From IMG/VR virus record IMGVR_UViG_3300045988_103765: a stretch of 64,000 nt of DNA; one strand, 5' to 3'. Shown here piece after piece: positions 1,774 through 53,595 of the stretch; position 1 is the first letter of the stretch; each line of letters begins with the position of its first letter. A program made the translations under genes and the position numbers. The stretch is from a virus. The notes beneath the pieces were generated by a model. That model saw only the letters and a program-made list of their open reading frames with translations. It searched no databases and had not been told where the DNA came from.

Positions 1774-2868
1774 TTACGTTATTGGTCGTAGAGGTACTAC
1801 GGAATCTGTATATCTCGATGAATCAAGAGTAACCCAGACTTTATAGGATTCGTCTGCTTCTATATCAAATGTCTTTCTGATAACTGTGTATGTTTCACCA
1901 GCAGCCACAGTGAATGTTCCTAACTTTAATTTTGTTTCACCAACCATCTGTGGGTCAAACAAGTCATGTTTAGCGAAGCGAACCCACAGCCAATTATTAG
2001 TAAAGGTCTTGCTTGAACTTGTCGGGTTCTTGACTTGAACAGTCACGGTCAATGCAGTTGCAATCATTCCAATACCAGCATTGATGATGATATTATATGT
2101 GGTACTTACTACTTGTATCTCGGCAACCTTAGTATTAGGCAAAGTGAAATAGCCAGCAGCCTTATCTGCGTCCAGTCTGCCAAGCTTTACAGTAGACAAG
2201 AACGGATAGACATTATATGTGTTTACTGGCAATCCTCCAACTGGTACTTGTACCAGCATTGTCCCTGGACTGTCAGCAGTCAGTCGTTGCGACCTTGTTC
2301 CTCCTTTCTGAACCATATATACACCAAAGTACATATCCCCTAATGTATAAGTCACACCCTGCCATACCAATCCACCTATATCACTTAACGATAGACTTTC
2401 TCCCGTTGAAGATGATGGATTATAAGCTACTGTGGCAAAAAAGGTGCTGCCACTTAGATTATCTACTTGCTTTGGAACTGTAAACGAGTGAATTGGCGCC
2501 ATTGCTTCCGGCATATACCCTTCAAAGTCAAGAAGCCGGAAAGGTGCATTGCTTCCTCCTTGTGGCGGTGAATACTTATATCCATTTGCTCCGTCAGAAG
2601 TCATTTTACTTACTATATCCTTATAAGTACCAGCCTGCGCACCGCTTGTATCAATACCACAATTCCCATTACTACTTTTCCACCAATTTGAGTTTGTAAG
2701 ATTGATATTTTCTGATGGGTATATTACGGGCTTATACTTTGCCCACATATTTGTTTTACCATGAGTATTCTTGCACAAATAACCTAAGTCATTACTTGAT
2801 ACACCCAATGCTGTGCGGACATCATCAATACTGACGGGTGCTACGATTTTCCCACTTGATATTGGCAT
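1774..2868 (-). CDS. Putative receptor-binding / tail-associated protein, paralog A
   Basis: Start moved from the track start 2949 to ATG 2868 (MPISSGKIVAPVSIDDVRTALGVSS...NMWAKYKPV), where homology to the 3073 and 4563 genes begins. The C-terminal ~300 aa are unrelated to those of the paralogs. Confidence 0.7.
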   Translation of the reverse strand: MPISSGKIVAPVSIDDVRTALGVSSNDLGYLCKNTHGKTNMWAKYKPVIYPSENINLTNSNWWKSSNGNCGIDTSGAQAGTYKDIVSKMTSDGANGYKYSPPQGGSNAPFRLLDFEGYMPEAMAPIHSFTVPKQVDNLSGSTFFATVAYNPSSSTGESLSLSDIGGLVWQGVTYTLGDMYFGVYMVQKGGTRSQRLTADSPGTMLVQVPVGGLPVNTYNVYPFLSTVKLGRLDADKAAGYFTLPNTKVAEIQVVSTTYNIIINAGIGMIATALTVTVQVKNPTSSSKTFTNNWLWVRFAKHDLFDPQMVGETKLKLGTFTVAAGETYTVIRKTFDIEADESYKVWVTLDSSRYTDSVVPLRPIT

Positions 2869-2876
2869 AAATAAAC

Positions 2877-2902
2877 TATTTAGTTCTAAGAGAACTTGGT
2901 AA
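2877..2902. repeat. Left arm of a perfect 26-nt inverted repeat flanking a 136-bp segment
   Basis: TATTTAGTTCTAAGAGAACTTGGTAA is the exact reverse complement of 3039..3064. It contains the internal palindrome AGTTCT-n3-AGAACT. Confidence 0.9.
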
Positions 2903-3038
2903 AAAACATGGCTTTGAGCTACCCGTAGCAGCATTGAAGCCGTTAACAACTCTCACTTTCTTTTTCATATCATTCTTCATAATACATTGTATCTTAAACT
3001 TTTACACAAAGGTAAACATAATTATCCACAAATGCAAG
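2903..3038. promoter_or_regulatory. Candidate invertible promoter segment between divergent paralogs A and B
   Basis: 136 bp bounded by 26-nt inverted repeats. The best -7 match, TACCTTTG, lies on the minus strand (3007..3014) facing paralog A. A weaker TGGCTTTG (2909..2916) faces paralog B. Also contains TTATCCACA (3022..3030). Confidence 0.45.
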
Positions 3039-3064
3039 TTACCAAGTTCTCTTAGAACTAAATA
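3039..3064. repeat. Right arm of the perfect 26-nt inverted repeat
   Basis: TTACCAAGTTCTCTTAGAACTAAATA ends 8 nt before the ATG at 3073. The left arm ends 8 nt before the ATG at 2868 on the other strand. Confidence 0.9.
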
Positions 3065-3072
3065 CTTGCGAT

Positions 3073-4239
3073 ATGTCAAATAGCGGAGGAAAGATTACAG
3101 CACCAGTAAGCATAGAAGATGTGCGTACTGTTTTAGGCGTTTCAAGCTATGACTTGGGTACACTGTGCAAGAGCGAGAAGATTAATATGTGGGCGAAGTA
3201 CAAACCGGTAAGAGTGCCGATGTTCAATGAACTTTATGAAAGCGAATTCAATGAAGCACAATATGGATTACACATACCTTCCTCTTCCTCGCTTGACAGC
3301 GTGATTAATACGCCATGGAGCCACGCAGCCCCAAGAGGCGGAGATTCAGAACCGTATCGGTTGACCGACTTTGATAAGTATAACCATGTATCGGAATTTA
3401 TAATTTCCGGAAATCTCAATCCGAAATATGACTGCAATTCTGAAACTGGTGATTTGTACATTGGTGCGTTGCTATGGGAAAGGTACGGGCAATACAATCT
3501 TAATGCTAAAGATTTGCCGTTATTGATGAAAATGCGGCTTGGCTTGCGGATTGACGGCAACAAAATACTTACAAGCAAGAAAACGGTAGCTGATGTGATA
3601 GGCGATAGCCAGTTATTGGCATGTGTACTAAATCCCAAAAGCGTAGGAAAATCGAGTTTTACGATTGAGCAGTTCCTAACGACCGAAAACTATCCTTCGT
3701 TATCCACATTTCCTACCGTAATACAATGCTATTCGGTTCCAAACTACACGGGAAAGACCAATTCGGCGGTAGTAAATTACACAGAAATCGGTAGCGGAAT
3801 CACGTTCAAAGACCAATACATGTCAAACGAACTCAACGGAGCGTACCAGACGGAAGATTATTACATGACTACGCCTTTTGTCGTATCTTATAACGGAGAT
3901 TATTCGGAGTATTGGAAGACTACATGTTCAAACAGTCGTAGTACGAAAGTTACCGTCAATGTGACAGATTTCACCTTCCACGGATATGATGTTAACGGAA
4001 ATCCAGAAACCGAGACATACAACGAAGATTTGAAGATGTACAATTCTAACAAACAGCAGGTCTATTCCGTAGACATACCTGCAAATGGCTCGGTGACTTT
4101 GTATTTTAAAACAAGAATGATTGGAAACAATTATTCGTCATATAACACTCGCACAAACGTGTTCTATGCAGAAGCAAAAATCAACGGTTACAATCAAAAT
4201 AGGATTATAAGGTTTGAACTTAATTACAGGTGCAATTAG
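3073..4239 (+). CDS. Putative receptor-binding / tail-associated protein, paralog B
   Basis: 388 aa. The N-terminus MSNSGGKITAPVSIEDVRTVLGVSSYDLGTLCKSEKINMWAKYKPV is shared with paralogs A and C. The C-terminus is divergent. Confidence 0.7.
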   Translation: MSNSGGKITAPVSIEDVRTVLGVSSYDLGTLCKSEKINMWAKYKPVRVPMFNELYESEFNEAQYGLHIPSSSSLDSVINTPWSHAAPRGGDSEPYRLTDFDKYNHVSEFIISGNLNPKYDCNSETGDLYIGALLWERYGQYNLNAKDLPLLMKMRLGLRIDGNKILTSKKTVADVIGDSQLLACVLNPKSVGKSSFTIEQFLTTENYPSLSTFPTVIQCYSVPNYTGKTNSAVVNYTEIGSGITFKDQYMSNELNGAYQTEDYYMTTPFVVSYNGDYSEYWKTTCSNSRSTKVTVNVTDFTFHGYDVNGNPETETYNEDLKMYNSNKQQVYSVDIPANGSVTLYFKTRMIGNNYSSYNTRTNVFYAEAKINGYNQNRIIRFELNYRCN

Positions 4240-4335: not shown

Positions 4336-4422
4336 ATGGTGGATATGGAAAAGAAAGTAGATTTATTAATTAAAGGTAACTTGTTGGTTACCAACAATAT
4401 AACTGGGGGGGGGGATTTTTAG
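4336..4422 (+). CDS. Short upstream ORF (28 aa as sequenced) interrupted just after a G10 tract
   Basis: ATG at 4336. The frame runs through G10 (4405..4414) to TAG at 4420..4422. With G9 the frame stays open to TAA at 4568..4570, overlapping the start of paralog C. Confidence 0.3.
   Translation: MVDMEKKVDLLIKGNLLVTNNITGGGDF
4405..4414. repeat. Homopolymeric G10 tract
   Basis: Ten consecutive G read directly from the sequence, inside the short ORF 150 nt upstream of paralog C. Confidence 0.95.
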
Positions 4423-4562: not shown

Positions 4563-5717
4563 ATGAGTAATAGTGGAGGTAAAATAACTGCGCCAGTCAA
4601 TATAGCTACTGATATACCAGCCGTTCTTGGTATAAGTAGTACAGACTTAGGAACTCAATGTAAAAGTGATAGAGTAAATCAATGGTCTAAAAGAAAGCCT
4701 ATGGAATATAATTCTCCATTAGAGCTAAGTGAAGCTACAATGGCAAATAATCATTATGGTGTCTGGGCGTCAGTAGGAACAGATGTGGTATTATCTAACA
4801 ATACAATGAGAAGCTTTCCGTGGACGTATAAAAAACCTACAACATATTTTAGGGCAACAGACTTCAACGGATATTATCATAAGGCTGTACCGCCAATAGA
4901 ATTTACTTTTCCTAAAAAACTTACTATCACGGGAGGAGCAAGCGGTAATCTAATATCGGGAATTAATGCAGGATTTGATGATTTAGGTCAAAGCGGATGG
5001 AATACAGATTGTTTAAGTATAAAAGATGCTATCTATAGTGATACATTAAATTATAGATTTACAGTTTGCGTCTTAGCTAAAAGCTCAACCGGACAAGTAA
5101 AGAAATGGTATGTTACAGACAAAAAAACTTTAAAACAAAGATTTGATAGTAGGGACTATGGAGAGGTAGATGTAGACTTAAACCTTAAACAAGCAGGCAT
5201 TACACAAGGTATGTCTGCACAGCTATGCTATTTCCTATCAAACAACAATATACCAAATGGTGCTCCTTCTTTAACAATTACGGGAGATTGTACATCCTTA
5301 GAGTACACTCCGTATGCTTCTATTAGGTCTTATACAGTAGAATATACCTCACCAACAGCAGGACTGACAGCTACCATAGATTTTGACTTAAATAGCTATA
5401 CTGGAACAACATTCTATGTTACAAGGGTACATTATAAGATAACAAAGGATTCAAGCTATGTTCCTACTACATTCTATCTTGACATACAAGCAGAATTAGC
5501 ATCAGTCAAATGGATTTGGCTTGTAGAAAATATACAGCCAGTATTCAGTGGTAATGTTGCCGAAAGAACCTATTATACTTCGCAACTTCCTACTGACAAC
5601 ATGTTTGTTATGGATTATGCAGAACGGGATGAATTTTCTGTAGTCTTACGTTTTAATGACCCTGCTAATAGTTATACAGAAATATTAGCGACTGAAAATA
5701 AAGATGTGAATTGGTAG
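4563..5717 (+). CDS. Putative receptor-binding / tail-associated protein, paralog C
   Basis: Start moved to ATG 4563 (MSNSGGKITAPVNIATDIPAVLGISSTDLGTQCKSDRVNQWSKRKPM). It is preceded by AAGGAGG, which is unusual in this window. The C-terminus is divergent. Confidence 0.7.
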   Translation: MSNSGGKITAPVNIATDIPAVLGISSTDLGTQCKSDRVNQWSKRKPMEYNSPLELSEATMANNHYGVWASVGTDVVLSNNTMRSFPWTYKKPTTYFRATDFNGYYHKAVPPIEFTFPKKLTITGGASGNLISGINAGFDDLGQSGWNTDCLSIKDAIYSDTLNYRFTVCVLAKSSTGQVKKWYVTDKKTLKQRFDSRDYGEVDVDLNLKQAGITQGMSAQLCYFLSNNNIPNGAPSLTITGDCTSLEYTPYASIRSYTVEYTSPTAGLTATIDFDLNSYTGTTFYVTRVHYKITKDSSYVPTTFYLDIQAELASVKWIWLVENIQPVFSGNVAERTYYTSQLPTDNMFVMDYAERDEFSVVLRFNDPANSYTEILATENKDVNW

Positions 5718-21178: not shown

Positions 21179-22424
21179 AATGGGCAATTATATAGGACTT
21201 GACACTTAAATGATTATCTTTGTACATGCAGCGAGTAGAAAGACATATAGCAATAGGCAACAAGCGGTTGGATGAACTTTGCTTCCTATCCAAGAACTTG
21301 TACAACTACGTAAATTATCTTATTAGACAAGAGTTTACGCAGCATAAGAAGCTTTTGTCCGAATATGAAGTTACTACCATGCTCGCTAAAGATAAACAAG
21401 CGGACTATATAGCCTTGCTTGCACAGACAAGCCAGCAGATTATAAAGATACTTTTCAAGAATTGGAAGGTATTCTTCAAACTCTGCAAGTTGAAGGACAA
21501 ACTGAAATCCCGTCCCAAGCTTCCCAAATACAAGCACAAGACAAAGGGACGCAACATTGTGGTATTTACCAATCAGCAGTGTAAGTTGAAGGATGGATAT
21601 ATCCATTTCCCGAAACGTGCCGGGATAGAACCAATAAGAACCAAAGTGGATAACTTGTGCCAAGTGAGGATAATTCCACAGTGCAGTTGCCACATAATAG
21701 AAGTAGTTTATGAAAAAGAGAAAGAAGAAGCCACCGAATTAGACGATACGACTTATCTAAGTATTGATTTAGGACTTGACAATCTCGCCACATCATTTGA
21801 CCCACAACACAACCGTTGTTTTGTCATTAACGGCAGACCGCTAAAGTCCATGAACCAATTCTTTAATAAGCGTAGGGCTTTCCTAATGAGTTTGATAGGT
21901 AGTCGGGGAATGAGTAGACGTATCGGACGATTAACTCTAAAGAGAAACTGTAAAGTACACGACTATATGCACAAAGCTTCAAGATTCATAGTAAATTATT
22001 GCAAGGATAACCACATTGGAAATATTGTGATAGGAAACAACAAGGATTGGAAGCAGAACTGTAATATGGGAAAGGTGAACAATCAGAACTTTGTGAGTAT
22101 TCCTTTTGAGAAGCTAATCTCCATGATACAATACAAGTGCGAGGAAGTAGGAATTAAGGTCATAGTCACGGAAGAGAGCTATACTTCCAAAACCGACCAC
22201 TATTCAGACGAAGCCATGTGCCACCACGAGAACTATATAGGAAAGCGCATAAAGAGAGGTCTATTCCGTAGCGCATCGGGCAAACTGATAAACGCTGACC
22301 TAAACGGAGCGATAGGAATTTTAAGAAAAGTAGTCGGTGAACGCCTTTGGCAAATAGCCGATAGAGGTGGAGTGGCAACACCATCAAGAATACAATTTGT
22401 ATAACTTTAAATAAATGTCATAAA
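21179..22424 (+). mobile_element. tnpB-only IS200/IS605-family-like insertion between terL and portal (ends not resolved)
   Basis: A 1.25-kb interval holds a single TnpB-like gene, with only 47 nt and 20 nt of flanking non-coding DNA. No tnpA. Confidence 0.55.
21226..22404 (+). CDS. tnpB: TnpB-like RNA-guided endonuclease (IS200/IS605 OrfB family)
   Basis: RuvC triad motifs are present: SIDLGLDN, VTEESYTSK and INADLNGAIGILRK. The usual CxxC...CxxC zinc finger between the E and the last D is absent (SKTDHYSDEAMCHHENYIGKRIKRGLFRSASGKL). Confidence 0.85.
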   Translation: MQRVERHIAIGNKRLDELCFLSKNLYNYVNYLIRQEFTQHKKLLSEYEVTTMLAKDKQADYIALLAQTSQQIIKILFKNWKVFFKLCKLKDKLKSRPKLPKYKHKTKGRNIVVFTNQQCKLKDGYIHFPKRAGIEPIRTKVDNLCQVRIIPQCSCHIIEVVYEKEKEEATELDDTTYLSIDLGLDNLATSFDPQHNRCFVINGRPLKSMNQFFNKRRAFLMSLIGSRGMSRRIGRLTLKRNCKVHDYMHKASRFIVNYCKDNHIGNIVIGNNKDWKQNCNMGKVNNQNFVSIPFEKLISMIQYKCEEVGIKVIVTEESYTSKTDHYSDEAMCHHENYIGKRIKRGLFRSASGKLINADLNGAIGILRKVVGERLWQIADRGGVATPSRIQFV

Positions 22425-24802: not shown

Positions 24803-25182
24803 AAAAGGTTCTTCTCCTAATAATCCTTTTGCCTCTTTTGTTTTCATGCCGAACTGCAAAAGACTTGGAGAAAAATACAGAAATAAAAGAGATTATCAAA
24901 GAACGGCATGACACTTTAATGGTACACACAAGAGATAGTATCTATTTTTCTGTTATTCAAAAAGGCGATACTGTTTTTAATACTAAGTATATTGAAAAAA
25001 TCAAGTACATAGACAGAACAGTCATACAGAATGATACTATATATCAAGAGAAAGAAGTCATTAAGGAGAAAGAAGTCATTAAGAAGCATGTTCCATCATG
25101 GTGCTGGTGGCTTTTACTAATTAATGCAGCAATCATAGGAATAATCGGAATTAAATACTACGTAAAATGGCGAACGAAGTAA
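24799..25182 (+). CDS. Spanin-like lipoprotein with C-terminal TM (unimolecular spanin candidate)
   Basis: 127 aa. Signal peptide with lipobox LLFSC, and a C-terminal transmembrane segment WCWWLLLINAAIIGIIGIKYYV. Start and stop overlap the endolysin and the fibre gene. Confidence 0.5.
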   Translation: MKKVLLLIILLPLLFSCRTAKDLEKNTEIKEIIKERHDTLMVHTRDSIYFSVIQKGDTVFNTKYIEKIKYIDRTVIQNDTIYQEKEVIKEKEVIKKHVPSWCWWLLLINAAIIGIIGIKYYVKWRTK

Positions 25183-28100
25183 ACCCTATACTGAATATAT
25201 ACAATGAAGATGGCACTCCCTTCCACGACATCAGTTTGAGAAAACACACTTTCTCAACTATTGTTATGTCGTTAAATGACAAGATAGAAGGAGAGTTTTA
25301 TTATAAAGACAATTCACTTTCGTTTACTCTGCAAGAATATGTAGAGTATAAAGGAATAAAGTACATTCTTAAAAATCCTCCCGTAGTTGTTAGAAAAGGA
25401 ATGACTTCGGAAAACAGCGAGGCAAAGGGAATGACTAAATATAGTTGTACTTTCTACCATGAAATGATTGAATTGTACAACATTCCCTTTACTGACATTG
25501 CTATTAGTAGCAGTGAGGAAAGTTATCGCAGCGAAAAACGGACTTTCTCGTGGATTGGTACATTAAGCATGTTCGTTCAAAAAATCAACTCATGTCTTGT
25601 CGGAACTAAATGGACTTGCAAGTTACAGCCAACATTTGTAGATGATGGGACAATGAGTGATGTGTTATCATTCAGCAATCAATTTATTTCAGACGTTTGC
25701 AAGACTGCATACGAAACATGGAAAGTCCCATTTGTAGTTGATGGATATACTATTTGGTTTGGCAAGCCATCTAAGGAAATACTCGACGATGAAAACAAGC
25801 CATACATATTCAAATTCGGACAAGGTGTAGGACTGAAAAACAACGATTGCACACCAAAGAATAATAAGGTCATTACTCGTATTGCTGGATATGGTAGCAA
25901 CATTAATATTCCGTATGGCTATCCTATAATTACAGATGCAGACGGAAATCGCATTGAGCACCCATATACTCGTGACACGTTAATGCCATCAGTATATGTA
26001 GAGGCAGTTAGAAATAAAGTCTTGTTTGGTTCTAAAAAACCTCTTATTGACTACTATGACGCAGATAGCAGCTATCCTACTCCTATCAATCCTCTTGCAC
26101 CAGTATTCCATATCCAAGAATTTTCCAGCATACAACCTACTATTGAAGGTATGACATACAAGGGACAAGCTATTGACTTGTTCAAAGAAGTAATAGTACC
26201 AGAAGGTGGCTGGGATGATTATATTGACCCCGAAACGGGAGAGGTTAGACAGTCGTATTTTGATGTGACGCTTTATCCTCTTGGCTTTGACTTATATGCA
26301 CAAGCAGCAGTTACAAGTGGAATGACCTTCTCCATGAAGTCCGGTGACACATTAGGAGCTAACTACGAGGTAGCAGTAGATTGGGAAGATGTAAAAAAGA
26401 ACTTCTATGTAACTGATGAAGCTGGAAACATTGTATTCAAACCAAATGGAGAACAGAGGGACTATGCTAAATATCCAGACAGTACAGACCAAGCTATTAC
26501 TATTAAACTGACAAAGGACTTAGATACATTTGGTACGATAATGCCAAGCAAGTTCCAGCAAGTTAAAACTGGCGACAAGTTTGTCATATTGCACATTGAA
26601 ATGCCACAAGCATATATAGACAAGGCACAAGAACGTTTGGACGTCGCCATGAAAAGATATATGCTTGAAAATAATATGCCTTTGTATGACTATCCTTTGA
26701 GCTTCGACGAACACTTCTTGGAAACAAACCAAGCAATTCTTGCGCAGATTAAGCCTAATACTATTGTCAGATTCTTGTATAAAGACAATGAGGACGCTAT
26801 GGAATTATCCGTAAAGGAAATGTCAATCCAATATGGTACAAATCCCCTTCCTACTTATAATATTACCTTAACGGACGAAGTGTCTATTGTACTGAATCAG
26901 ATAGGACAGATAGCTGATGGACTTAGCAAGTTAGGAAGCCAAGTAGCACAGTTACAAGCTATTTATGGACTTGACATTGTAGGCGAACTGAACAAAAAAC
27001 TCAGCAGAGTTAAAGATGATACCGCACAAGGAATGATAACTTTCTTGCGTGGATTGAAAGTCGGTAGCTATGTGACCGGAAGTACGGGCGGTATATTCTA
27101 TGCAGATACAGACGGAAAATCACATGCAGAGCTTGATTATCTGACAGTAAGAATGAAAGCCATGTTCTATGCTTTGGAGATTATCAAGACCGGAGTTATC
27201 GGAGGTCGCCAAATGATTACTCCCGGTGGTGCAATCGAATGTATCAAGATAGAAGATAGAAATGATATACTTGACGAAGAAGGTAACAAGACTGGCGAGA
27301 ATGTTTGGGACTATTGGAGATGTTACTTCTATCAAGATGATGGTACAGAAGCGTTAGATAATCGTTTCCGCGCTGGGGATATGGCTTTAGCACAAGACTT
27401 CAATATTAAGGAGGGAGTTTATGAGAATGTGTCAAATCATTACTTCTGGCGTTTAGTCGTAAACGTAGGAACTAATTACATTGACATCTCAAAAACTGAT
27501 GCTGATGCAGCCAGTGATGCACCACGAGTAGGAGATACCATTTGCCAATTAGGTAATAAGACCTTTGTTGATGCAAATGGTGTTACTCATGTAGAGGACA
27601 AGACAAGACAGAATGCAATTATCTTTAGTGCAGTTGACACTTTCTCACCAAGTATGACTTTATATGCTGGCATAAACAGCTATTCATACCTCAACAAAGA
27701 GTATGTGTCCTATGGTGTTGATAAGACCACAAATCTCGCTTATATGAACGTCTATGGCAACTCTTATATCGGAGCAAGAGATAAGAGCAGCTATATGAAG
27801 TTTGATACGGTAACTGGTGTTGAGATAAAAGGTAAACTTGTAACTAAATCCGGCAAAGACGTTGAGGAAACATTCAACAGCTTTCAAGACCAGATAGATG
27901 GAGTAAAGGAAACTTGGTACGGAGAATATACACCAACTCTTACTAATCAGCCAGCAGTTGATTGGAACACAGAAGCTTTGAAAAAACGGCATGAAGGTGA
28001 TGTATTTACCAATATCCAAGAATATGTCGATGATGAAACTACTCCCGATGCAGGCAAATCATGGAGATGGGTAAAGACGGGAGATACATGGGGATGGAAG

Positions 28101-31100: not shown

Positions 31101-32522
31101 AGGGTGTTTATCGCTGGAATATCCGGAGGTGCAGGTTCTAAATGGATAAGAATTGGTGTTTTAAAATATCCGGGTACAGGTGATTCTAACACTGTAATGA
31201 TAACTATATCGAATTCTTATTCATATTCAATGAATAGGTCTGTAACTTTTATAATATCATTGACACATCATGAAAGTAAACCTATAATAACACAATTGAA
31301 TGGTTATCCTGATCTATTTAAAGCAGTAAGAATTTTAGCTCCCAAAGACAGTAATGGAAGTTATACATATGGTGATAGATATGTAGACATATCCTATTCT
31401 ACTTCAGCTGCAAGTGAAGCATCCAATACTATTTATTTAACTGCTATAAATCTTAATTATAAGGATTCGTATCATTTTATTCCAAATAAAAACTTTGTAG
31501 ATGGAACAACTATTCCTTCTAATTATGGTGAAATATGGAATTTTCCTTTTACTACTGGCTTAGGTAGTAATGCTAATATATATTCACAAAATGGTTTGAT
31601 TGAGGGAGGGACTTTAAAACTAAGTTCTACAAGTACTTTTGCTGGTAAAGCTACATTCAACGGAGGGCTATCTGGAACATTGACGGGTTCTCTAAGTGGT
31701 AATGCTACAACCGCTACAACCTTACAGACTTCACGTACAATAAATGGTACATCGTTCAACGGTTCAGCTAATATTACAACTTCTTATTGGGGAACTACAA
31801 GAACGATTTGGGGACAGTCAGTAAACGGGTCGGCAAATGTCAGTGGAGCTATGACTGGGGTTACAAGCATTACTGCAACTGGTCTTATAAGAACTTCAAA
31901 TCTGTTCTCTGCTGGCGATGGAGGAAGCGATAATGCGTATGGTTATTATAACTGTACTCGTCCCAATACAGCTAATACCGGATATGTATGCTATGCAATG
32001 GTTAGAAGTGGTACTATAGCAATGGGACTTGGATATTATAATAATGAAATTGTTTTAGGTAATGCAGGTACTTCAAGACAATTTAATGAAAAATGGTTAC
32101 AAATAAGTGGTTCCAGATTACTAATTAATGGCAATATAGAGGCAACTGGCGCAGTTACAGCCAAGTCTTCCTCTTCTGACATAAGATTGAAGAAAAATAT
32201 CAAAGAATACAATGCTTTGGATATTATTCACAAGTTAAAGTCAGTGAAGTATTACTGGAATGATACCGCAAAAGCAAACTCTCCAATCTTTAATGACAAT
32301 GAGGAGCATTACGGACTTATTGCACAAGACTTGCTAATAAATGGATATAGCCAATGGGTAAGTAACTGTTTTAAAGATTATTATGTAATACAATACGAAC
32401 GTTTAATACCCGTATTATGGCGAGGTATTCAGCAAGTAGATAATGAGGTAGCTACCCTCAAAAAGAAGATAGCTACCTTAGAAAAAGAACTTAGTTCTGT
32501 AAAGAGGCAACTAAGCCTTTAA
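25167..32522 (+). CDS. Giant tail fibre / tail-tip protein with C-terminal S74-type intramolecular chaperone
   Basis: 2451 aa. Central coiled coil (AKAQKAAEEAKKEANDAKQ). Poly-Gly linkers (SGSGGGGGGL, KNGGGGTG). The C-terminus carries SSSDIRLKKNI...HYGLIAQDL followed by a coiled coil. Confidence 0.8.
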   Translation: MANEVNPILNIYNEDGTPFHDISLRKHTFSTIVMSLNDKIEGEFYYKDNSLSFTLQEYVEYKGIKYILKNPPVVVRKGMTSENSEAKGMTKYSCTFYHEMIELYNIPFTDIAISSSEESYRSEKRTFSWIGTLSMFVQKINSCLVGTKWTCKLQPTFVDDGTMSDVLSFSNQFISDVCKTAYETWKVPFVVDGYTIWFGKPSKEILDDENKPYIFKFGQGVGLKNNDCTPKNNKVITRIAGYGSNINIPYGYPIITDADGNRIEHPYTRDTLMPSVYVEAVRNKVLFGSKKPLIDYYDADSSYPTPINPLAPVFHIQEFSSIQPTIEGMTYKGQAIDLFKEVIVPEGGWDDYIDPETGEVRQSYFDVTLYPLGFDLYAQAAVTSGMTFSMKSGDTLGANYEVAVDWEDVKKNFYVTDEAGNIVFKPNGEQRDYAKYPDSTDQAITIKLTKDLDTFGTIMPSKFQQVKTGDKFVILHIEMPQAYIDKAQERLDVAMKRYMLENNMPLYDYPLSFDEHFLETNQAILAQIKPNTIVRFLYKDNEDAMELSVKEMSIQYGTNPLPTYNITLTDEVSIVLNQIGQIADGLSKLGSQVAQLQAIYGLDIVGELNKKLSRVKDDTAQGMITFLRGLKVGSYVTGSTGGIFYADTDGKSHAELDYLTVRMKAMFYALEIIKTGVIGGRQMITPGGAIECIKIEDRNDILDEEGNKTGENVWDYWRCYFYQDDGTEALDNRFRAGDMALAQDFNIKEGVYENVSNHYFWRLVVNVGTNYIDISKTDADAASDAPRVGDTICQLGNKTFVDANGVTHVEDKTRQNAIIFSAVDTFSPSMTLYAGINSYSYLNKEYVSYGVDKTTNLAYMNVYGNSYIGARDKSSYMKFDTVTGVEIKGKLVTKSGKDVEETFNSFQDQIDGVKETWYGEYTPTLTNQPAVDWNTEALKKRHEGDVFTNIQEYVDDETTPDAGKSWRWVKTGDTWGWKQIADNDTSKAYLEAAKAQKAAEEAKKEANDAKQTVTNMKDFTDEAFKDGIVDRQEAAAIEKYLNSIKSIQKSVAESYSKVYGNPLLSGTAKVELKTAYDGFNVATTELITAIDDAIADGVATSTEVALVDGRYDTFNTKYGDFIAYLNAANNFIQDKINTSAEDAKKAAEEAQKAADAAKAEAEAAKQRLDKWAEDGVISPTEKQSIKDEIVRIDADKTNITAGYTLYSLGSPTGYLNAHSNYRAVLVTLSASTPENITIPSDFASKQSAYYNQRTAALNAISDAAKAAVDTVKKDLAGYEYLKKAWKESTTIEGGVIQNALNMLGYTDPVAGFKVMSGMNGVYDATKVGGGIASWYGGSMKDRADYTEANMPSDVAKAIIRMDGSGYLASGAVWWGTDGVFHADPQSFIIKKNQLGDYVSLFQIVYRSGTPKTISYMIPQYPMQKLTVSDYIEIGTTGYRIGVDSANNAIKVYKEDGSAVNFYASGAVSAKGISSGSGGGGGGLIDTVYGYSSLGGTFADSTLSDTFNAYTINKLASRITELEKNGGGGTGIAGIKVNDQTYAPDTSKYITLPNYPSTTITGTGNVLTNATYDNSTRVLTLTKGNIATTANHLERYAQITSTAIDTVSTFTASKTSVWEANGTAYGTTGANDTVLNIGSAANRLFQLRAAYNSDDFYFRGVGASSFRTWYKVLHEGNYASALDSKYLKLSGGTLTGVLTVGDTSTIAEVVTIKTRNVNGNHIQFVSNTIPTAEVGYLTSFGAYLYNDKLDSHPTLCLGLADNLRDAIIYRYAGVNYNVWHSGSLKPYQFTNWADTKSVNHVPNDYDSLFIMRGIKNLTTIGLSGGGVYATVWGWRGWLDRTGGHAWEIASTNEDLYTRHGETTSWTSWAKILNSSNYQNYPNTKVGISDFWLYPEHSNEINFGGTYTGSNHIYFGYRSKDNRPRTTEYHFGQNDASLHGEYFQSYIPTGTQPFQCVSTTTCTNLNADMVDGYHSNDLTKRVFIAGISGGAGSKWIRIGVLKYPGTGDSNTVMITISNSYSYSMNRSVTFIISLTHHESKPIITQLNGYPDLFKAVRILAPKDSNGSYTYGDRYVDISYSTSAASEASNTIYLTAINLNYKDSYHFIPNKNFVDGTTIPSNYGEIWNFPFTTGLGSNANIYSQNGLIEGGTLKLSSTSTFAGKATFNGGLSGTLTGSLSGNATTATTLQTSRTINGTSFNGSANITTSYWGTTRTIWGQSVNGSANVSGAMTGVTSITATGLIRTSNLFSAGDGGSDNAYGYYNCTRPNTANTGYVCYAMVRSGTIAMGLGYYNNEIVLGNAGTSRQFNEKWLQISGSRLLINGNIEATGAVTAKSSSSDIRLKKNIKEYNALDIIHKLKSVKYYWNDTAKANSPIFNDNEEHYGLIAQDLLINGYSQWVSNCFKDYYVIQYERLIPVLWRGIQQVDNEVATLKKKIATLEKELSSVKRQLSL
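31623..31641. repeat. Left 19-nt core of the inverted repeat inside the fibre gene (candidate crossover site)
   Basis: AGTTCTACAAGTACTTTTG, in frame as S S T S T F (fibre codons 2153-2158). Its exact inverted copy lies at 33510..33528. Confidence 0.9.
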
Positions 32523-33567
32523 GCCTATTAATCTCTGATTTAGCATGTTCCAATTCCTTTCTCATTCGTTCTTGCTCTGATTCAACAAGACGGATAGAAA
32601 GGATATTGGCTTGCACAGAACCAATGATTGTTGCGGTAAGGTCGGGAGATAAATAATTCAAGCTACCATATCCATATTCATCCTTTTCGTGACAGAAATT
32701 TGTGATACCAGCTTTCACCGCATTTTGATATACAAGTCCGGTATGACGTTTATTGTCTATCCTATCTTGGTATAAATCCAATGCTTTTTTGTTATAATTA
32801 TAGTCATAAACTCTGCCAAGTTTTAGTAGTCTTTCTCGGTAATCTATAAGCCCATCGTAATTCTCTTTTAATCTAAAGTCAGAAGTAGCTTTAGCGGTGA
32901 TTGCAGCCGTAGCAGTAATACTTCCAGTAAAAGCCCATGTACTACCATCATATTCCATAACATACGATTTATTTGTAGAGCTTGTCGGGTTAGCAGTACC
33001 TCTCCACCAATGCCACAAACCATTTGAATGACAGCCAAGTCCCATTGTATAATTACCTCCAACAATTTCAATGCTATCATGGCTTGTATTTGCAAATCTT
33101 GCTCCTACATTATAAGCCTTAGCACCACTTCCAGTTATTCCCGTACTATTTATCCAACCATGTAGGGTGCAATCTCCAAATTCCATATTTGCCCAAGATG
33201 AACTGCTTCCTGCCCGCCAATACCATTTTTTAGGAACAGACCTACCGCCATAACTTGCACCTCTATAATTAACATGAAACTCAGTGCCTCCAGCTATAAT
33301 AATCTCATTTCCACCGCTTGAAAGTTCCAAATAAGAACCATTTTGGGTTATACCAGATGGATTCATATAAAGACCAGAATTAGCATAGACCCAAGCTTGA
33401 ATATACGCATCTATAAATCTATTGCTACTTGAACCTATTCTGTAATTATTATTGCTTAACGGAAAGATATTACCAGAATACATTCCACCATTAAAAGTTG
33501 CAGTTTCACCAAAAGTACTTGTAGAACTAAGGTTTGTATCAAATTGGTAGCCAGATATTTGGTGCTT
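32491..33567 (-). other. Start-less alternative tail-fibre C-terminal cassette (convergent, inverted)
   Basis: The minus-strand frame is open from just after TGA (33568..33570) to the stop at 32491. It begins with fibre-homologous TNLSSTSTFGETATFNGG. It ends with its own S74-like module (TSDFRLKENY...HTGLVYQNA) plus a coiled coil. There is no N-terminal anchor domain. The 3' end overlaps the fibre gene by 32 nt. Confidence 0.7.
33510..33528. repeat. Right 19-nt core (inverted) of the candidate crossover site
   Basis: CAAAAGTACTTGTAGAACT is the reverse complement of 31623..31641 and sits in the same codon phase on the minus strand. Confidence 0.9.
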
Positions 33568-41550: not shown

Positions 41551-41932
41551 ATTCTTTTAAAATTAATTGATATTGTTCTTCTGTAAATTCCTTCCAGTCT
41601 AAAATCATAACCCTATACCCAGTTTCCTTCTCTATAAGATTACGGTAATACTCCACATTGAAAAAATCATCTTCTTTAGGTAGAAATAAAGAAGCTTGAC
41701 CTCTACTATGATAATAGACAATGTACCAATAAGAAACGGCAGGAGCATCAATACATGAATATACTACACTGCCAATATAACCTAAAAAGAGAATGCCTAA
41801 GACTATCCATACTAATGTACTACTAATGGAGTAAAGAAGATGTCCTATGCAAAGCACACCAATTATAGACAATATGATAAAGAGGAGAGAAACTATCTCT
41901 TTCCCCACAGCCTTTATAATCTTACTTTTCAT
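41510..41932 (-). CDS. Membrane protein (140 aa, 2-3 TM)
   Basis: Hydrophobic N-terminal half (IVSLLFIILSIIGVLCIG, LVWIVLGILFLGYIGSVVY). Overlaps both neighbours. Confidence 0.5.
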   Translation of the reverse strand: MKSKIIKAVGKEIVSLLFIILSIIGVLCIGHLLYSISSTLVWIVLGILFLGYIGSVVYSCIDAPAVSYWYIVYYHSRGQASLFLPKEDDFFNVEYYRNLIEKETGYRVMILDWKEFTEEQYQLILKEYEREQSNGIAKAE

Positions 41933-52174: not shown

Positions 52175-52774
52175 ATGGATAATAGCAATAATGAGATATG
52201 GAAAGATATTATTGGATTTGAGCAATATTATCAAGTAAGCAATTTAGGTCGTGTTAGAAGCAAAGATAGAATTGTCATAACTCCTAAAACTTCTTATTTT
52301 AAAAAAGGAAGAATATTAATTCCTTCTTTAGATGGCAAAGGAAATTATTTATTTGTAGGTCTACATGTTAACAATAAAGTTAAACTTATCTATATTCATA
52401 GATTGGTTGCTCAGAATTTTATACCAAATCCTCACAACTATAAGCAAGTTAACCATATCAATGAAAATAAAAAAGATAATAGGGCAGATAATTTAGAATG
52501 GTGTACAGCTGAATATAATATGAACTATGGTACAGCCATGCAAAGGGCGAAAGAAACCTATGCTTCACATTATGATAGGAGTGCTATTGCTAAAAATAAT
52601 GCTATTAAAAAGAAAGTTATACAATATACACTTGATGGCAAGTATATTAAAGAATGGGATTCTTTAACAGATATACAAAATGAATTAGGCTTTTGCAGAA
52701 GCAATATCTCAAAATGTTGTGAAGGGAAGTATAAACAAGCTAATAACTTTATATGGAAATTTAAAAAAGATTGA
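52175..52774 (+). CDS. HNH homing endonuclease (NUMOD4 + HNH + IENR1-like)
   Basis: 199 aa. EIWKDIIGFEQYYQVSNLGRVRS is a NUMOD4 motif. HRLVAQNFIPNPHNYKQVNHINENKKDNRADNLEW is an HNH motif. The C-terminus has a helix-turn-helix, WDSLTDIQNELGFCRSNISKCCEGK. Confidence 0.8.
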   Translation: MDNSNNEIWKDIIGFEQYYQVSNLGRVRSKDRIVITPKTSYFKKGRILIPSLDGKGNYLFVGLHVNNKVKLIYIHRLVAQNFIPNPHNYKQVNHINENKKDNRADNLEWCTAEYNMNYGTAMQRAKETYASHYDRSAIAKNNAIKKKVIQYTLDGKYIKEWDSLTDIQNELGFCRSNISKCCEGKYKQANNFIWKFKKD

Positions 52775-52776
52775 TT

Positions 52777-53595
52777 ATGAAAAAGTTTGTATCATGGAGA
52801 AGGGTTTCTACCATATATCAAAAGAAAACCGGGTTGGGTCTTGAATCACAAAAAAATATAATAAATCATTTTGTTCAAATAGAAAACGGAACTTTAATAG
52901 CTGACTTTTGCGAAGTATATACGGGTAAGGACCTAAATGAATGCACTGAATTAAGGAAGGCAATATCTTTTGCAAAAGAAAATAATGCAATATTAATAAT
53001 AGCTAAAACTGACCGATTTAGAAATACGGTTGAAGCATTACAAATATATGACGAAATGGGAGAAGGAAATATTTATTTTTGTGATATTCCACATACAGAC
53101 AAATTTACCCTTACCTTATTTTTCGCTTTGGCAGAAAGGGAAGCTTTATTAGTATCTATAAGAACAAAGGCAGCTTTAGCGGTGAATAAAGCAAAAGGCA
53201 TACTATCTGGACGTGCTAATAGTAATTATCAAATTAAAGATGAAACAAAAGAAAAAGCTATTCTCAAAGGGGCTATTACAAAAAATAAAGCTACGATTGA
53301 AAGTGAAGAATTTTCTTGTTTCTGTAGAATACTACGAAAAGTGATACCTATACTGAATGAAAATTCTACGGATGAAGAACTATTCTTCTTAAACTGGACT
53401 AAATACCGTACAAGTTTTGTCCTTACTAAAGATTACAAAGCGGAAATAAAGGAACTCATGCAGGAAGCTAATAGGAACAACAGCAAACTGTTTATCGGAG
53501 TTGACTTCACGAATGCTAATTTTTATCAGTATATTAGTAGCCGCGTACAAGCTACGTTCAATTCAATTTCTAAATACAAAGAATATAACTTATGA
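52777..53595 (+). CDS. Small serine recombinase (resolvase/invertase family catalytic domain)
   Basis: Start at ATG 52777. WRRVSTIYQ carries the catalytic Ser (YxRVSTxxQ pattern). Also contains ILIIAKTDRFRNT (DRxxR) and ALAEREALLVSIRTKAAL (E-helix). The C-terminal ~110 aa match no helix-turn-helix I can recognise. Confidence 0.7.
   Translation: MKKFVSWRRVSTIYQKKTGLGLESQKNIINHFVQIENGTLIADFCEVYTGKDLNECTELRKAISFAKENNAILIIAKTDRFRNTVEALQIYDEMGEGNIYFCDIPHTDKFTLTLFFALAEREALLVSIRTKAALAVNKAKGILSGRANSNYQIKDETKEKAILKGAITKNKATIESEEFSCFCRILRKVIPILNENSTDEELFFLNWTKYRTSFVLTKDYKAEIKELMQEANRNNSKLFIGVDFTNANFYQYISSRVQATFNSISKYKEYNL

What the first reader, a model, noticed from the sequence alone, without database searches (positions are those of the whole stretch)
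2877..3064. 136-bp promoter-like segment flanked by perfect 26-nt inverted repeats between two divergent receptor-binding paralogs (candidate inverton)
Paralogs A (minus, ATG 2868) and B (plus, ATG 3073) diverge from a 204-nt spacer. Eight nt upstream of each ATG lies the same 26-nt sequence in inverted orientation (2877..2902 and 3039..3064, TTACCAAGTTCTCTTAGAACTAAATA). The adjacent homologous coding DNA of the two genes has diverged substantially, but the 26-mers are identical, which argues for selection on the repeats themselves. The enclosed 136 bp carries one perfect Bacteroides -7 box (TACCTTTG, minus strand, 3007..3014), currently oriented toward paralog A. Inverted repeats of 20-30 bp flanking a 100-300 bp promoter are the hallmark of Bacteroides phase-variable promoters. 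Here inversion would switch expression from paralog A to paralog B. The repeat contains AGTTCT-n3-AGAACT, and the fibre crossover core contains AGTTCT-n3-AGTACT. The same recombinase might therefore serve both sites; this rests on short motifs and is weak.
Basis: partly seen in the sequence, partly recalled or inferred. Interest (0 to 1): 0.8.

Follow-up and report, generated by a model that had tools for sequence, protein, structure and literature searches.

The report
Flippable promoter switch in gut phage
A Bacteroides phage carries a 136-bp DNA segment that is found flipped in otherwise identical copies of the phage; it most likely acts as a reversible promoter switch between two alternative virion-surface-type proteins, so the phage appears to use the trick its host uses to vary its own surface.

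Summary
Perfect 26-nt inverted repeats (2877-2902, 3039-3064) flank 136 bp, and each repeat ends 8 nt before the ATG of a divergent paralog.

The segment really inverts in nature. Across about 45 related phage contigs it lies in the window's orientation in most. It is exactly reverse-complemented in six: the cultured B. uniformis phage C3_41T2LP, L015, L028, L077, L132 and L133. Flipped and unflipped contigs can be 100% identical over more than 2 kb of flank. Natural sequence variants in the repeat place the crossover between arm positions 3 and 21, which is the palindrome AGTTCT-N3-AGAACT.

That palindrome is enriched in the window (7 sites against 0.19 expected). It also forms the crossover sites of a tail-fibre C-terminus inversion, which is likewise seen in both orientations. 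The only recombinase found in the window besides a RecT/RecE-like pair and a TnpB element is a serine invertase (52777-53595).

One conserved Bacteroides -7 box (TAnnTTTG, 3014-3007, minus strand) points across the segment toward paralog A.

Not shown: promoter activity, which enzyme does the flipping, and whether the paralogs bind receptors (no family or informative fold match).

Verdict: a phage-borne promoter inverton, a new variant of a known kind.

The parts
2877..2902 (.). Left arm of the inverted repeat (A-side), 26 nt, ending 8 nt before the ATG of paralog A
   Evidence: perfect reverse complement of 3039-3064; the same arm precedes a paralog start in every related locus.
3039..3064 (.). 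Right arm of the inverted repeat (B-side), 26 nt, ending 8 nt before the ATG of paralog B
2882..2896 (.). Palindromic core AGTTCT-AAG-AGAACT inside the left arm; inferred crossover and recombinase-binding site
   Evidence: 7 sites against 0.19 expected; markers at arm positions 1-2 move with the segment and position 22 stays with the gene, so the crossover lies between positions 3 and 21.
3045..3059 (.). Palindromic core AGTTCT-CTT-AGAACT inside the right arm
   Evidence: The central dinucleotide co-varies between the two arms (17 TT/TT, 8 CA/CA, 1 mixed).
2903..3038 (.). 136-bp invertible segment
   Evidence: Exact reverse complement found next to paralog A in L001 (phage C3_41T2LP), L015, L028, L077, L132 and L133. 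Flanks are 100% identical between flipped and unflipped contigs.
3007..3014 (-). Bacteroides-type -7 box TACCTTTG (TAnnTTTG), reading toward paralog A in the window's orientation; putative promoter
   Evidence: Kept in all interior variants, with changes only at an 'n' position (TATCTTTG). The motif is enriched in intergenic DNA of this phage (21 against 9.6). Consensus taken from PMC4747536 and PMC7366714. Function not shown.
3035..3038 (-). CTTG, a 3-of-4 match to the -33 TTTG element, 20 nt upstream of the -7 box
   Evidence: the same 19-20 nt spacing is seen at other TTTG/-7 box pairs of the window (190, 33582, 47619). Weak.
2876..2968 (-). Possible 30-aa leader ORF (MKKKVRVVNGFNAATGSSKPCFLPSSLRTK) that starts in the segment, crosses the arm and stops 7 nt before A's ATG. 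In the flipped state it would stop just past B's ATG.
   Evidence: translation in both states. The 34-aa form (from the upstream ATG at 2980) was called as a gene in L131/L143. Substitutions give no clear coding signature. Unproven.
1774..2868 (-). Paralog A (364 aa), the conserved partner present in all related phages
   Evidence: Variation is concentrated in the C-terminal two thirds and spread evenly over codon positions.
3073..4239 (+). Paralog B (388 aa), the variable partner; replaced by other types (T2, T3, T5) in related phages
   Evidence: AF2 model: N-terminal alpha/beta domain plus beta-sandwich domains. No family match.
4563..5717 (+). Paralog C (384 aa), same strand as B, possibly co-transcribed with it
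   Evidence: No strong terminator was found between B and C.
52771..53595 (+). Serine recombinase / DNA invertase (probable ATG at 52777), candidate enzyme acting in trans, about 49.7 kb from the switch
   Evidence: No tyrosine recombinase among the ORFs scanned. Homologs are present in related phages and in C3_41T2LP.
31616..31666 (.). Left arm of the tail-fibre inversion (core AGTTCT-ACA-AGTACT at 31623-31637), inside the 2451-aa fibre gene
33485..33535 (.). Right arm of the tail-fibre inversion (core at 33514-33528), next to the alternative C-terminal cassette 32491-33483 (-)
   Evidence: Simulated inversion keeps the frame (2451 to 2497 aa). C3_41T2LP carries the alternative form.

Best explanation
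The 136-bp segment 2903-3038 is a phage-borne invertible promoter (inverton).

Shown:
- The segment exists in both orientations in natural populations of one and the same phage strain.
- The breakpoints lie inside the 26-nt inverted repeats.

Inferred:
1. Recombination is site-specific. It takes place at the palindrome AGTTCT-N3-AGAACT in the middle of each arm, where the central nucleotides must match between the two arms.
2. The enzyme is the phage's own serine invertase (52777-53595), acting in trans. It also flips the C-terminal cassette of the giant tail-fibre gene at sites with the same half-sites but a different centre (ACA).
3. The segment carries one host-type promoter at its far end (-33-like CTTG at 3038-3035, -7 box TACCTTTG at 3014-3007, minus strand). 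This promoter transcribes across the segment and through the arm.
4. In the window's orientation, which is the commoner one, it drives the conserved paralog A. After inversion it drives the variable paralog B and probably C.
5. The paralogs share a conserved N-terminal domain of about 105 aa and have unrelated beta-sandwich C-terminal parts. They are most likely alternative virion-surface, host-recognition-type proteins.
6. The switch would therefore split a phage population into subpopulations with different surface specificities, mirroring the phase-variable capsules of its Bacteroides host.
For: Inversion:
- The exact reverse complement of the segment lies next to paralog A in L001 (cultured phage C3_41T2LP), L015 (complete: A, arm, flipped segment, arm, partner gene), L028, L077 (mid-contig in 72.9 kb), L132 and L133. 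All other two-arm loci have the window's orientation.
- Same strain in both states: L132 against L131 is 100.000% identical over 2,202 nt, and L133 against L135 over 2,199 nt. In both cases identity starts exactly at the arm.
- Flipped loci share interior haplotypes with unflipped ones. This implies at least three independent, recent events.

Crossover mapping:
- The CC variant at arm positions 1-2 always adjoins the same end of the segment. It sits on the non-A arm in unflipped loci and on the A arm in flipped L077.
- The T variant at position 22 always stays with its gene.

Arms co-vary:
- The central dinucleotide is TT/TT in 17 loci, CA/CA in 8 and mixed in 1. C3_41T2LP has CA in both arms.

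Mixed samples (indirect):
- Flipped contigs end 101-102 nt (C3_41T2LP, L132, L133) or 73 nt (L028) into the segment, which equals k minus 26 for k = 127 or 99.
- Two assemblies end exactly at the inner edge of an arm.
- That is where an assembly graph branches when both orientations are in the reads.

Shared site and enzyme:
- The core occurs 7 times against 0.19 expected.
- The fibre pair 31623/33514 is flipped in many relatives and in C3_41T2LP, in frame.
- A serine recombinase is present. No tyrosine recombinase was found.

Promoter:
- TAnnTTTG is kept in every variant, with changes only at free positions.
- The motif is enriched in intergenic DNA, often 17-100 nt before gene starts.
- Two independent TnpB insertions into the segment both read in the promoter's direction.

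Proteins:
- Homology is confined to the N-terminal ~27% and C-termini are variable.
- Several paralogs occur per phage.
- A homolog lies next to crAss ring-protein genes.
- Variation in A is spread evenly over codon positions.
Against: - No transcript data are available. A single 6-of-8-specified motif in 136 bp is expected by chance roughly once in ten such segments, and its -33 element is only a 3-of-4 match.
- In 14 related phages with a single arm, the -7 box is absent but the first 95 nt of the segment and the arm are retained. Paralog A therefore has another way of being transcribed there.
- The invertase lies 49.7 kb away, is 274 aa long, has no recognisable HTH domain and gives no PDB sequence match.
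- The invertase also occurs in the single-arm phages, so co-occurrence does not link it to this switch.
- The core has an odd 3-nt spacer, which does not fit the symmetric 12-2-12 sites of the Hin/Gin family.
- No read-level data were available, so switching within one clonal population is inferred, not seen.
- The paralogs have no family or informative fold match, so a role in host recognition is unproven.
Confidence: 0.72

Rival explanations
1. The segment inverts by site-specific recombination, but it is not a simple promoter toggle. It may carry no functional promoter, or one at each end. Flipping would then swap leaders, a small leader ORF or promoter strengths, and modulate the two paralogs in a graded way or through translation.
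For: - A 30-34 aa ORF starts in the segment, crosses the arm and ends 7 nt before A's ATG. In the flipped state it would end just past B's ATG. A gene caller predicted it in two contigs.
- Single-arm phages keep 95 nt of the segment without the -7 box.
- A near-consensus box TGGCTTTG lies at the opposite end on the other strand (2909-2916).
Against: - TGGCTTTG lacks the conserved A and has no -33 partner.
- Substitutions in the small ORF are 4 non-synonymous to 2 synonymous, so there is no coding signature.
- The leader RNA is no more structured than shuffled sequence (z = +0.45).
- The TAnnTTTG box is the only consensus match, and it is conserved.
Confidence: 0.15
2. The inversions are by-products of general homologous recombination (phage RecT/RecE-like proteins or host RecA) between the inverted duplicated 5' ends of the paralogs. 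There is no dedicated recombinase and no selected switching function. The identical 26-mers are kept alike by gene conversion.
For: - The phage encodes RecT (40702-41550) and a RecE-like exonuclease (41922-42905).
- The arms are part of a 134-nt, 72% inverted duplication.
- A known precedent is the RecA-dependent sap promoter inversion of Campylobacter fetus (own knowledge).
Against: - 26 nt of identity is very short for efficient homologous exchange.
- The arms contain a perfect 6-3-6 palindrome that recurs at the independently invertible fibre site and is enriched 7 against 0.19.
- The two central nucleotides co-vary between arms.
- Inversion has happened repeatedly on backgrounds with zero flank substitutions.
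- An invertase gene is present.
Confidence: 0.09
3. The 26-mers are a shared operator or 5'-UTR element of a static bidirectional promoter region. The flipped contigs are assembly artefacts.
For: - The arm is retained unchanged in 14 single-arm phages that cannot invert.
- Four of the six flipped observations lie at contig ends.
Against: - A 24-26-nt repeat is shorter than the final k of the assemblers concerned, so it cannot cause a false flip.
- L077 (mid-contig) and L015 carry the complete flipped segment between both arms.
- Six assemblies from different projects, including a cultured phage, agree.
- The lack of variation in single-arm leaders is not significant, given 2 variable sites per 100 nt in the adjacent coding DNA.
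- An operator or UTR role for the arm is not excluded, but it would come in addition to inversion, not instead of it.
Confidence: 0.03

Closest known systems
Invertible promoters (invertons) of Bacteroides, e.g. the capsular polysaccharide promoters of B. fragilis flipped by the serine master invertase Mpi (PMC4747536; Jiang et al. 2019, cited in PMC13501310)
   Same: - A short (100-300 bp) segment bounded by 20-30-bp inverted repeats.
- The segment carries a sigma-ABfr type promoter (TAnnTTTG).
- A serine recombinase encoded far from its sites may act in trans on several loci that share a core.
- The result is a heterogeneous population.
   Different: - The element sits in a phage genome, not in the bacterium.
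- It lies between two divergent paralogs, so it would be an A-or-B toggle rather than an on/off switch.
- The repeat core (AGTTCT-N3-AGAACT) is unrelated to the Mpi repeat (ARACGTWCGT, own knowledge).
- The recombinase is not an Mpi-family member by NCBIfam (18.6 bits against a cut-off of 272).
Host-range switches of phages Mu (G segment/Gin) and P1 (C segment/Cin), and fibre shufflons such as the multi-cassette tail-fibre shufflon of BV01-like Phocaeicola phages (PMC13596623) and the Rin shufflon of bifidobacterial prophages (PMC6109161)
   Same: - A phage-encoded recombinase flips DNA so that one phage stock produces particles with alternative host-recognition proteins.
- The fibre inversion at 31623-33528 in this same window is of exactly this kind.
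   Different: - In those systems the inversion swaps coding cassettes behind a fixed promoter and a constant N-terminus.
- Here the coding sequences stay fixed and 136 bp of non-coding DNA carrying the presumed promoter flips between two complete genes.
- The invertase is not adjacent to the segment.
Campylobacter fetus sap locus (own knowledge: Dworkin and Blaser, 1990s): a single promoter on an invertible element between oppositely oriented S-layer gene homologs
   Same: One promoter flips between two divergent paralogs that share conserved 5' ends, giving mutually exclusive expression of alternative surface proteins.
   Different: - The sap element is about 6 kb, and it inverts by RecA-dependent recombination within about 600-bp conserved 5' regions.
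- Here the segment is 136 bp, and the crossover is confined to a 26-nt repeat with a recombinase-type palindrome.
Salmonella Hin/H segment flagellar phase variation (own knowledge)
   Same: A serine invertase flips a promoter-bearing segment bounded by 26-bp sites, and the outcome is a choice between two alternative surface proteins.
   Different: - Hin is encoded inside the roughly 1-kb segment, and it needs a Fis-bound enhancer.
- The alternative choice there is made through a repressor (FljA), not by pointing the promoter at a second gene.
- hix sites are 12-2-12, whereas here the core is 6-3-6.

Membership tests
Invertible promoter (inverton) phase-variation switch | Short DNA segment bounded by inverted repeats | tested here: met
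   Perfect 26-nt repeats flank 136 bp.
Invertible promoter (inverton) phase-variation switch | Segment occurs in both orientations, with breakpoints inside the repeats | tested here: met
   Six flipped contigs against about 40 unflipped. Markers place the crossover between arm positions 3 and 21. Flanks are 100% identical in both states.
Invertible promoter (inverton) phase-variation switch | Both orientations coexist within one clonal population (frequent, reversible switching) | tested here: inconclusive
   No reads were available. Indirect evidence: flipped contigs, including the plaque-derived C3_41T2LP record, break at k minus 26 nt into the segment or exactly at the inner edge of an arm. 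That is expected for mixed reads, but the assembler settings are not known.
Invertible promoter (inverton) phase-variation switch | A functional promoter inside the segment that drives a flanking gene in one orientation only | tested here: inconclusive
   One TAnnTTTG box is conserved, with changes only at free positions, and the motif is enriched in intergenic DNA. There are no transcription data.
Invertible promoter (inverton) phase-variation switch | A site-specific recombinase that catalyses the flip | not testable with these tools
   A candidate serine invertase is present at 52777-53595. Its activity on these sites is untested.
Hin/Gin/Cin/Pin small serine DNA invertase systems | Serine recombinase catalytic domain with the nucleophile serine motif | tested here: met
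   Pfam Resolvase 3.4e-11 over residues 10-143; PHROG 125 'DNA invertase' 8.9e-16; RRVST motif.
Hin/Gin/Cin/Pin small serine DNA invertase systems | Protein of about 190 aa with a C-terminal helix-turn-helix DNA-binding domain | tested here: not met
   274 aa; no HTH family detected in the C-terminal 130 residues; no PDB sequence match at E of 1e-3 or better.
Hin/Gin/Cin/Pin small serine DNA invertase systems | 26-bp crossover sites made of two 12-bp half-sites around a 2-bp centre | tested here: inconclusive
   The arms are 26 nt and dyad-symmetric, but as 6-3-6 (odd spacer). Two of the three central nucleotides co-vary between arms, as a crossover dinucleotide would.
Hin/Gin/Cin/Pin small serine DNA invertase systems | Invertase gene inside or adjacent to the invertible segment, with an enhancer | tested here: not met
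   The gene lies about 49.7 kb from the promoter switch and about 19 kb from the fibre switch. Enhancer not testable.
Mpi-family master DNA invertase (NCBIfam NF009949) | Sequence membership in the family model | tested here: not met
   E = 0.0012, 18.6 bits against a cut-off of 272, partial match only.
Mpi-family master DNA invertase (NCBIfam NF009949) | One recombinase acting in trans on several dispersed sites that share a repeat core | tested here: inconclusive
   Two independently invertible loci share AGTTCT-N3-AG(A/T)ACT, and the core is enriched 7 against 0.19. The enzyme-site link is untested.
Phage receptor-binding / tail-fibre proteins (for paralogs A, B, C) | Recognisable fibre, spike or receptor-binding domain, or a demonstrated virion location | tested here: not met
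   No Pfam, PHROG or NCBIfam match. PDB fold matches are generic only (TM about 0.15). The PDB profile search found nothing. Viral fold matches are all uncharacterised. Support is contextual only: modular N-terminus, a position past the tape-measure block, and a homolog next to crAss ring genes.

The most novel reading that the evidence does not exclude
A virulent-type Bacteroides phage runs its own 'variation regulon'. One trans-acting serine invertase recognises AGTTCT-N3-AGAACT sites, and the central nucleotides of each site decide which sites pair. The invertase flips two things independently. One is a promoter between alternative host-recognition proteins; this would be the first promoter inverton described in a phage. 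The other is the C-terminal cassette of the giant tail fibre. A hypermutable G7-G11 tract gates a third paralog. A single plaque would then yield a combinatorial mix of virion types that tracks the phase-variable capsules of the host.
Probability: 0.4. Interest if true: 0.85.

Novelty: new variant of a known kind. Interest (0 to 1): 0.75.

Why it matters
Gut Bacteroides escape phages by flipping promoters of capsule and surface-protein loci. How their phages keep up is an open question.

Phage counter-strategies described so far change coding sequence: Mu/P1-type cassette inversion, fibre shufflons, diversity-generating retroelements and poly-G tracts. In the library searched I found no phage-borne promoter inverton that chooses between complete alternative genes. 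The nearest item only 'suggests potential viral invertons' (PMC13501310).

This system is directly testable, because a cultured relative exists: phage C3_41T2LP on B. uniformis MB20-41. It carries the switch in the opposite state, with both arms bearing a matched variant centre.

It would also:
- give a compact toggle part for Bacteroides genetics (136 bp plus 26-bp arms);
- give a set of recombinase sites whose pairing seems to be set by two or three central nucleotides;
- warn that phage reference genomes and host-range assays may represent only one of several interconverting states.

Tried and rejected
1. **Function of the paralogs.** Pfam, PHROGs and NCBIfam gave nothing. A good AF2 model (pLDDT 80.6) matched only generic beta-sandwiches in the PDB (TM about 0.15) and uncharacterised phage proteins in BFVD. 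A PDB profile search found nothing. 'Receptor-binding' therefore stays an inference.

2. **Co-occurrence of the invertase with the two-arm architecture.** The invertase is also present in single-arm phages, presumably for the fibre switch, so the test does not discriminate.

3. **Extra constraint on the lone arm in the 14 single-arm phages.** There are 0 variable sites in 129 nt, but the adjacent coding DNA has only about 2 per 100 nt, so this is not significant.

4. **Structured leader RNA or riboregulator.** Folding energy is no better than shuffled sequence (z = +0.45). Rejected.

5. **Coding test of the small ORF that crosses the arm.** There are too few substitutions (4 non-synonymous, 2 synonymous). 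Undecided.

6. **Second promoter at the other end (TGGCTTTG).** It lacks the conserved A and a -33 partner. Considered unlikely.

7. **Prophage or host context.** No hit in 185,579 representative genomes.

8. **Sigma-70 scan.** Not relevant for Bacteroides, and not above shuffles.

9. **Tyrosine recombinase.** None among the ORFs scanned. Not every small ORF of the window was scanned.

10. **Literature on phage C3_41T2LP.** No paper found in the library.
Full report
**1. The observation**

The window is most of the genome of a tailed Bacteroides phage. Its only relative in the phage collection is Bacteroides phage C3_41T2LP (OR296439.1, 74.4 kb), isolated from plaques on B. uniformis MB20-41.

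At 2877-2902 and 3039-3064 lies the same 26-mer, TTACCAAGTTCTCTTAGAACTAAATA, in inverted orientation with no mismatch. No further copy with up to 3 mismatches exists in 64 kb, and none is expected by chance.

Each copy ends 8 nt before an ATG: 2868 on the minus strand for paralog A (364 aa) and 3073 on the plus strand for paralog B (388 aa). A third paralog, C, follows B at 4563-5717.

The inverted repeat continues into the homologous N-terminal coding DNA at only 72% over 134 nt.

The middle of each arm is a perfect palindrome, AGTTCT-CTT-AGAACT.

**2. The segment inverts in nature**

I collected loci in three ways:
- A scan of viral contigs for the 26-mer gave 28 loci.
- A scan of metagenome contigs for a degenerate version gave 14 more.
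- Look-ups of the exact A and B proteins gave 19 more.

I anchored every locus on the start of paralog A and read outward. The results were:
- Most two-arm loci have the window's orientation ('F', interior position 1 next to A).
- Six have the exact reverse complement of the 136 bp next to A ('R'), with the change of sequence exactly at the inner edge of the arm.
  - L001: the cultured phage C3_41T2LP.
  - L015: the complete structure (A, arm, flipped segment, arm, partner gene).
  - L028: at a contig end.
  - L077: in the middle of a 72.9-kb contig.
  - L132 and L133: two contigs that encode the identical A protein.
- L132 (R) is 100.000% identical to L131 (F) over 2,202 nt.
- L133 (R) is 100.000% identical to L135 (F) over 2,199 nt. 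In both pairs identity begins exactly at the arm.
- The flipped loci share their interior haplotypes with unflipped loci: L077 with the L003 group, and L015 with L020/L078.

Inversion has therefore happened several times independently, and it is faster than point substitution in this DNA.

An assembly artefact is unlikely. The repeat (24-26 nt) is shorter than the final k-mer of current assemblers, and two flipped loci are complete and internal.

**3. Where the crossover is**

Natural variants act as markers.
- **Arm positions 1-2 (CC instead of TT).** This variant always adjoins the same end of the segment. It is on the non-A arm in the unflipped loci that carry it (L003, L006, L018, L021, L075, L082, L084) and on the A arm in flipped L077. 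These positions travel with the segment.
- **Arm position 22 (T instead of A).** This variant is always on the arm of the T2/T3 partner genes, in unflipped loci and in flipped L015. This position stays with the gene.

The exchange therefore happens between positions 3 and 21, which is the palindrome (positions 7-21).

The two nucleotides at positions 14-15, in the centre of the palindrome, co-vary between the two arms of a genome: TT/TT in 17 non-duplicate loci, CA/CA in 8 and mixed in one (L004). Fisher's test gives p = 6e-6, but this is not corrected for shared ancestry.

C3_41T2LP has CA in both arms.

Matched centres are what a recombinase that exchanges strands at the centre of its site requires. 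That is an inference from the known chemistry of site-specific recombinases.

**4. Indirect evidence for mixed populations**

I had no reads. The flipped contigs, however, end at telling places:

| Assembly | Where it ends |
|---|---|
| C3_41T2LP record, end | 101 nt into the segment |
| C3_41T2LP record, start | exactly at the inner edge of the other arm, leaving 35 nt unassembled |
| L132 and L133 (MEGAHIT 'k127' names) | match the flipped segment for 102 nt, then end |
| L028 | 73 nt into the segment |
| L022 (other end of the same contig as L028) | exactly at the inner edge of an arm |

Note that 101 = 127 - 26 and 73 = 99 - 26. In a de Bruijn graph, the stretch arm-segment-arm is shared by both orientations. 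A contig coming from a flank must stop there if reads of both orientations are present. A pure population would assemble straight through.

This argues for coexisting states even in a plaque-derived stock. I do not know the assemblers' settings, so I rate it as suggestive only.

**5. The recombinase and a second switch**

The core AGTTCT-N3-AGAACT, allowing one mismatch, occurs at 7 places in the window against 0.19 expected. The sites other than the two arms include:
- **30153:** a perfect lone site.
- **31623 and 33514:** an inverted pair, AGTTCT-ACA-AGTACT.

The pair brackets the 3' end of the 2451-aa fibre gene (25167-32522) and a convergent fibre-like ORF (32491-33483).
- A simulated inversion between the two cores keeps the reading frame and gives a 2497-aa protein with another C-terminus.
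- C3_41T2LP carries that alternative form.
- Among 35 related contigs the fibre segment is found in both orientations many times.

This phage lineage therefore has an active inversion system of the Mu G-segment kind. The promoter arms use the same half-sites with a different centre (CTT or CCA against ACA).

On the enzyme side:
- The window encodes one serine recombinase, at 52771/52777-53595. It matches Pfam Resolvase at 3.4e-11 and PHROG 'DNA invertase' at 8.9e-16, and has an RRVST motif.
- I found no tyrosine recombinase among the ORFs I scanned.
- The protein is atypical: 274 aa, no detectable HTH, no PDB sequence match, and far below the Mpi family cut-off.
- Homologs, in two clades at 97-99% and about 59% identity, occur in related phages with or without the second arm. 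Co-occurrence therefore does not tie the enzyme to this switch.
- The phage also has RecT and a RecE-like nuclease. These are the basis of the main mechanistic rival.

**6. What flipping would do**

The segment has one match to the Bacteroides -7 consensus TAnnTTTG (consensus from PMC4747536 and PMC7366714).
- The match is TACCTTTG at 3014-3007 on the minus strand, 24 nt from the B-side arm and reading across the segment toward A.
- A 3-of-4 match to the -33 element, CTTG, lies 20 nt upstream of it. Other TTTG/-7 box pairs of this phage show the same spacing.
- In all interior variants the box is kept, and the only change falls on a free position (TATCTTTG).
- The motif is enriched in the intergenic DNA of the window (21 against 9.6 expected) and often lies 17-100 nt before gene starts.
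- A TnpB insertion sequence has landed in the segment at two different positions (in L009, and in L013/L025). Both times it reads in the promoter's direction.

On this reading the common F state transcribes A, and the R state transcribes B and probably C.

None of this is transcript evidence. In 14 single-arm relatives the box is missing while the arm and the adjacent 95 nt remain. A can therefore be expressed in another way there.

The leader RNA is not unusually structured. A 30-34 aa ORF runs from the segment through the arm, but it has no clear coding signature.

**7. What the paralogs are**

The evidence:
- They have no family match.
- 115 homologs, all unnamed, share mainly the first ~105 residues.
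- The AF2 model of B (pLDDT 80.6) shows an N-terminal alpha/beta domain followed by beta-sandwich domains.
- Fold matches are generic in the PDB and uncharacterised in BFVD, where several phages carry two or three paralogs.
- The genes lie just past the tape-measure and Ant genes.
- A distant homolog lies next to crAss ring-protein genes.
- Variation in A is concentrated in the C-terminal two thirds and spread evenly over codon positions (34/33/44).
- A is constant across the phage group, whereas its partner is replaced by at least four unrelated C-terminal types (T2-T5).

All of this fits alternative host-recognition or virion-surface proteins, but it is inference.

**8. Comparison with known systems, and novelty**

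The element works like a Bacteroides inverton and may have an Mpi-like trans-acting enzyme. It differs in three ways:
- It sits in a phage.
- It toggles between two complete genes.
- Its repeat core and recombinase are outside the known families.

It serves the same end as the Mu, P1 and BV01-type fibre switches (PMC13596623). Unlike them, it moves the promoter and not the coding cassettes.

Its logic is closest to the C. fetus sap promoter inversion, which is much larger and RecA-dependent (own knowledge).

In six literature searches I found no description of a promoter inverton in a phage. The library is incomplete, so this is absence of evidence only.

I rate it a new variant of a known kind.

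**9. Verdict**

| Claim | Confidence |
|---|---|
| The observation | confirmed |
| The segment inverts in nature | about 0.97 |
| Inversion is site-specific, at the palindrome | about 0.8 |
| The phage's serine invertase is the enzyme | about 0.65-0.7 |
| The segment is a promoter toggle between A and B/C | about 0.65 |
| The paralogs act in host recognition | about 0.5 |
| Whole model | 0.72 |

Noticed in passing
window 4405-4414 (spacer between paralog B and paralog C): A G10 homopolymer. Its length varies from 7 to 11 among related contigs, and it differs between near-identical ones (L128 has G11, L131 has G10). It lies in a short ORF starting at 4345. G9 gives a 74-aa product that ends over the start of paralog C, G10 gives 25 aa and G11 gives 32 aa. 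This looks like a slipped-strand phase-variable tract, placed just downstream of the inverton-controlled gene.
   Followed up: partly
window 31616-31666 and 33485-33535 (with 25167-32522 + and 32491-33483 -): A Mu-G-like inversion of the C-terminal cassette of the 2451-aa fibre gene. The crossover core is AGTTCT-ACA-AGTACT. Simulated inversion stays in frame (2497 aa). The alternative form is present in phage C3_41T2LP, and both orientations occur in many related contigs. L096 has two sites in direct orientation and an extra cassette.
   Followed up: yes
window 33510-33517 (minus strand): The right fibre crossover site contains a consensus -7 box (TACTTTTG, part of AGTACTTTTG), with a TTTG 22 nt upstream in the fixed flank. 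It points into the invertible fibre segment, 27 nt before the ATG of the silent cassette ORF (33483). This may be chance, or it may be a promoter that expresses the non-fused cassette.
   Followed up: no
window 30153-30167: A lone perfect core site, AGTTCT-TTC-AGAACT, with the same ACCA flank as the promoter arms. It lies inside the fibre gene and has no partner of the same centre in the window. It is conserved at the equivalent place in C3_41T2LP. Weaker one-mismatch sites lie at 19149 and 49539.
   Followed up: partly
window 21220-22404; L013 4043-5227, L025, L009, L137: A TnpB (IS605-family, RNA-guided nuclease type) element sits between the terminase gene and the next structural gene. A 97%-identical copy is inserted inside the 136-bp invertible segment in several related phages, at two different positions, and is always co-oriented with the putative promoter and paralog A. 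The same insertion sequence is mobile within this phage lineage.
   Followed up: partly
window 52175-52774: An HNH/NUMOD homing-endonuclease gene whose stop overlaps the start of the serine invertase gene.
   Followed up: no
L030 35-223 and 213-1580 (phage C3_41T2LP record start): In the cultured phage the partner gene behind the second arm is a 62-aa truncated paralog, annotated 'structural (coat) protein'. It is followed by a full-length 455-aa paralog preceded by the same AAAGGAGGTAACTATG junction that precedes paralog C in the window. The GenBank record is cut inside the inverton, and 35 nt of the segment are missing.
   Followed up: partly
L004 13075-13262: This is the only locus whose two arms have different centres (A arm CTT, partner arm CCA). 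If matched centres are required, this phage would be locked in the F state. No invertase homolog was picked up on its 66.8-kb contig by the pattern-based scan, but that scan can miss genes.
   Followed up: no
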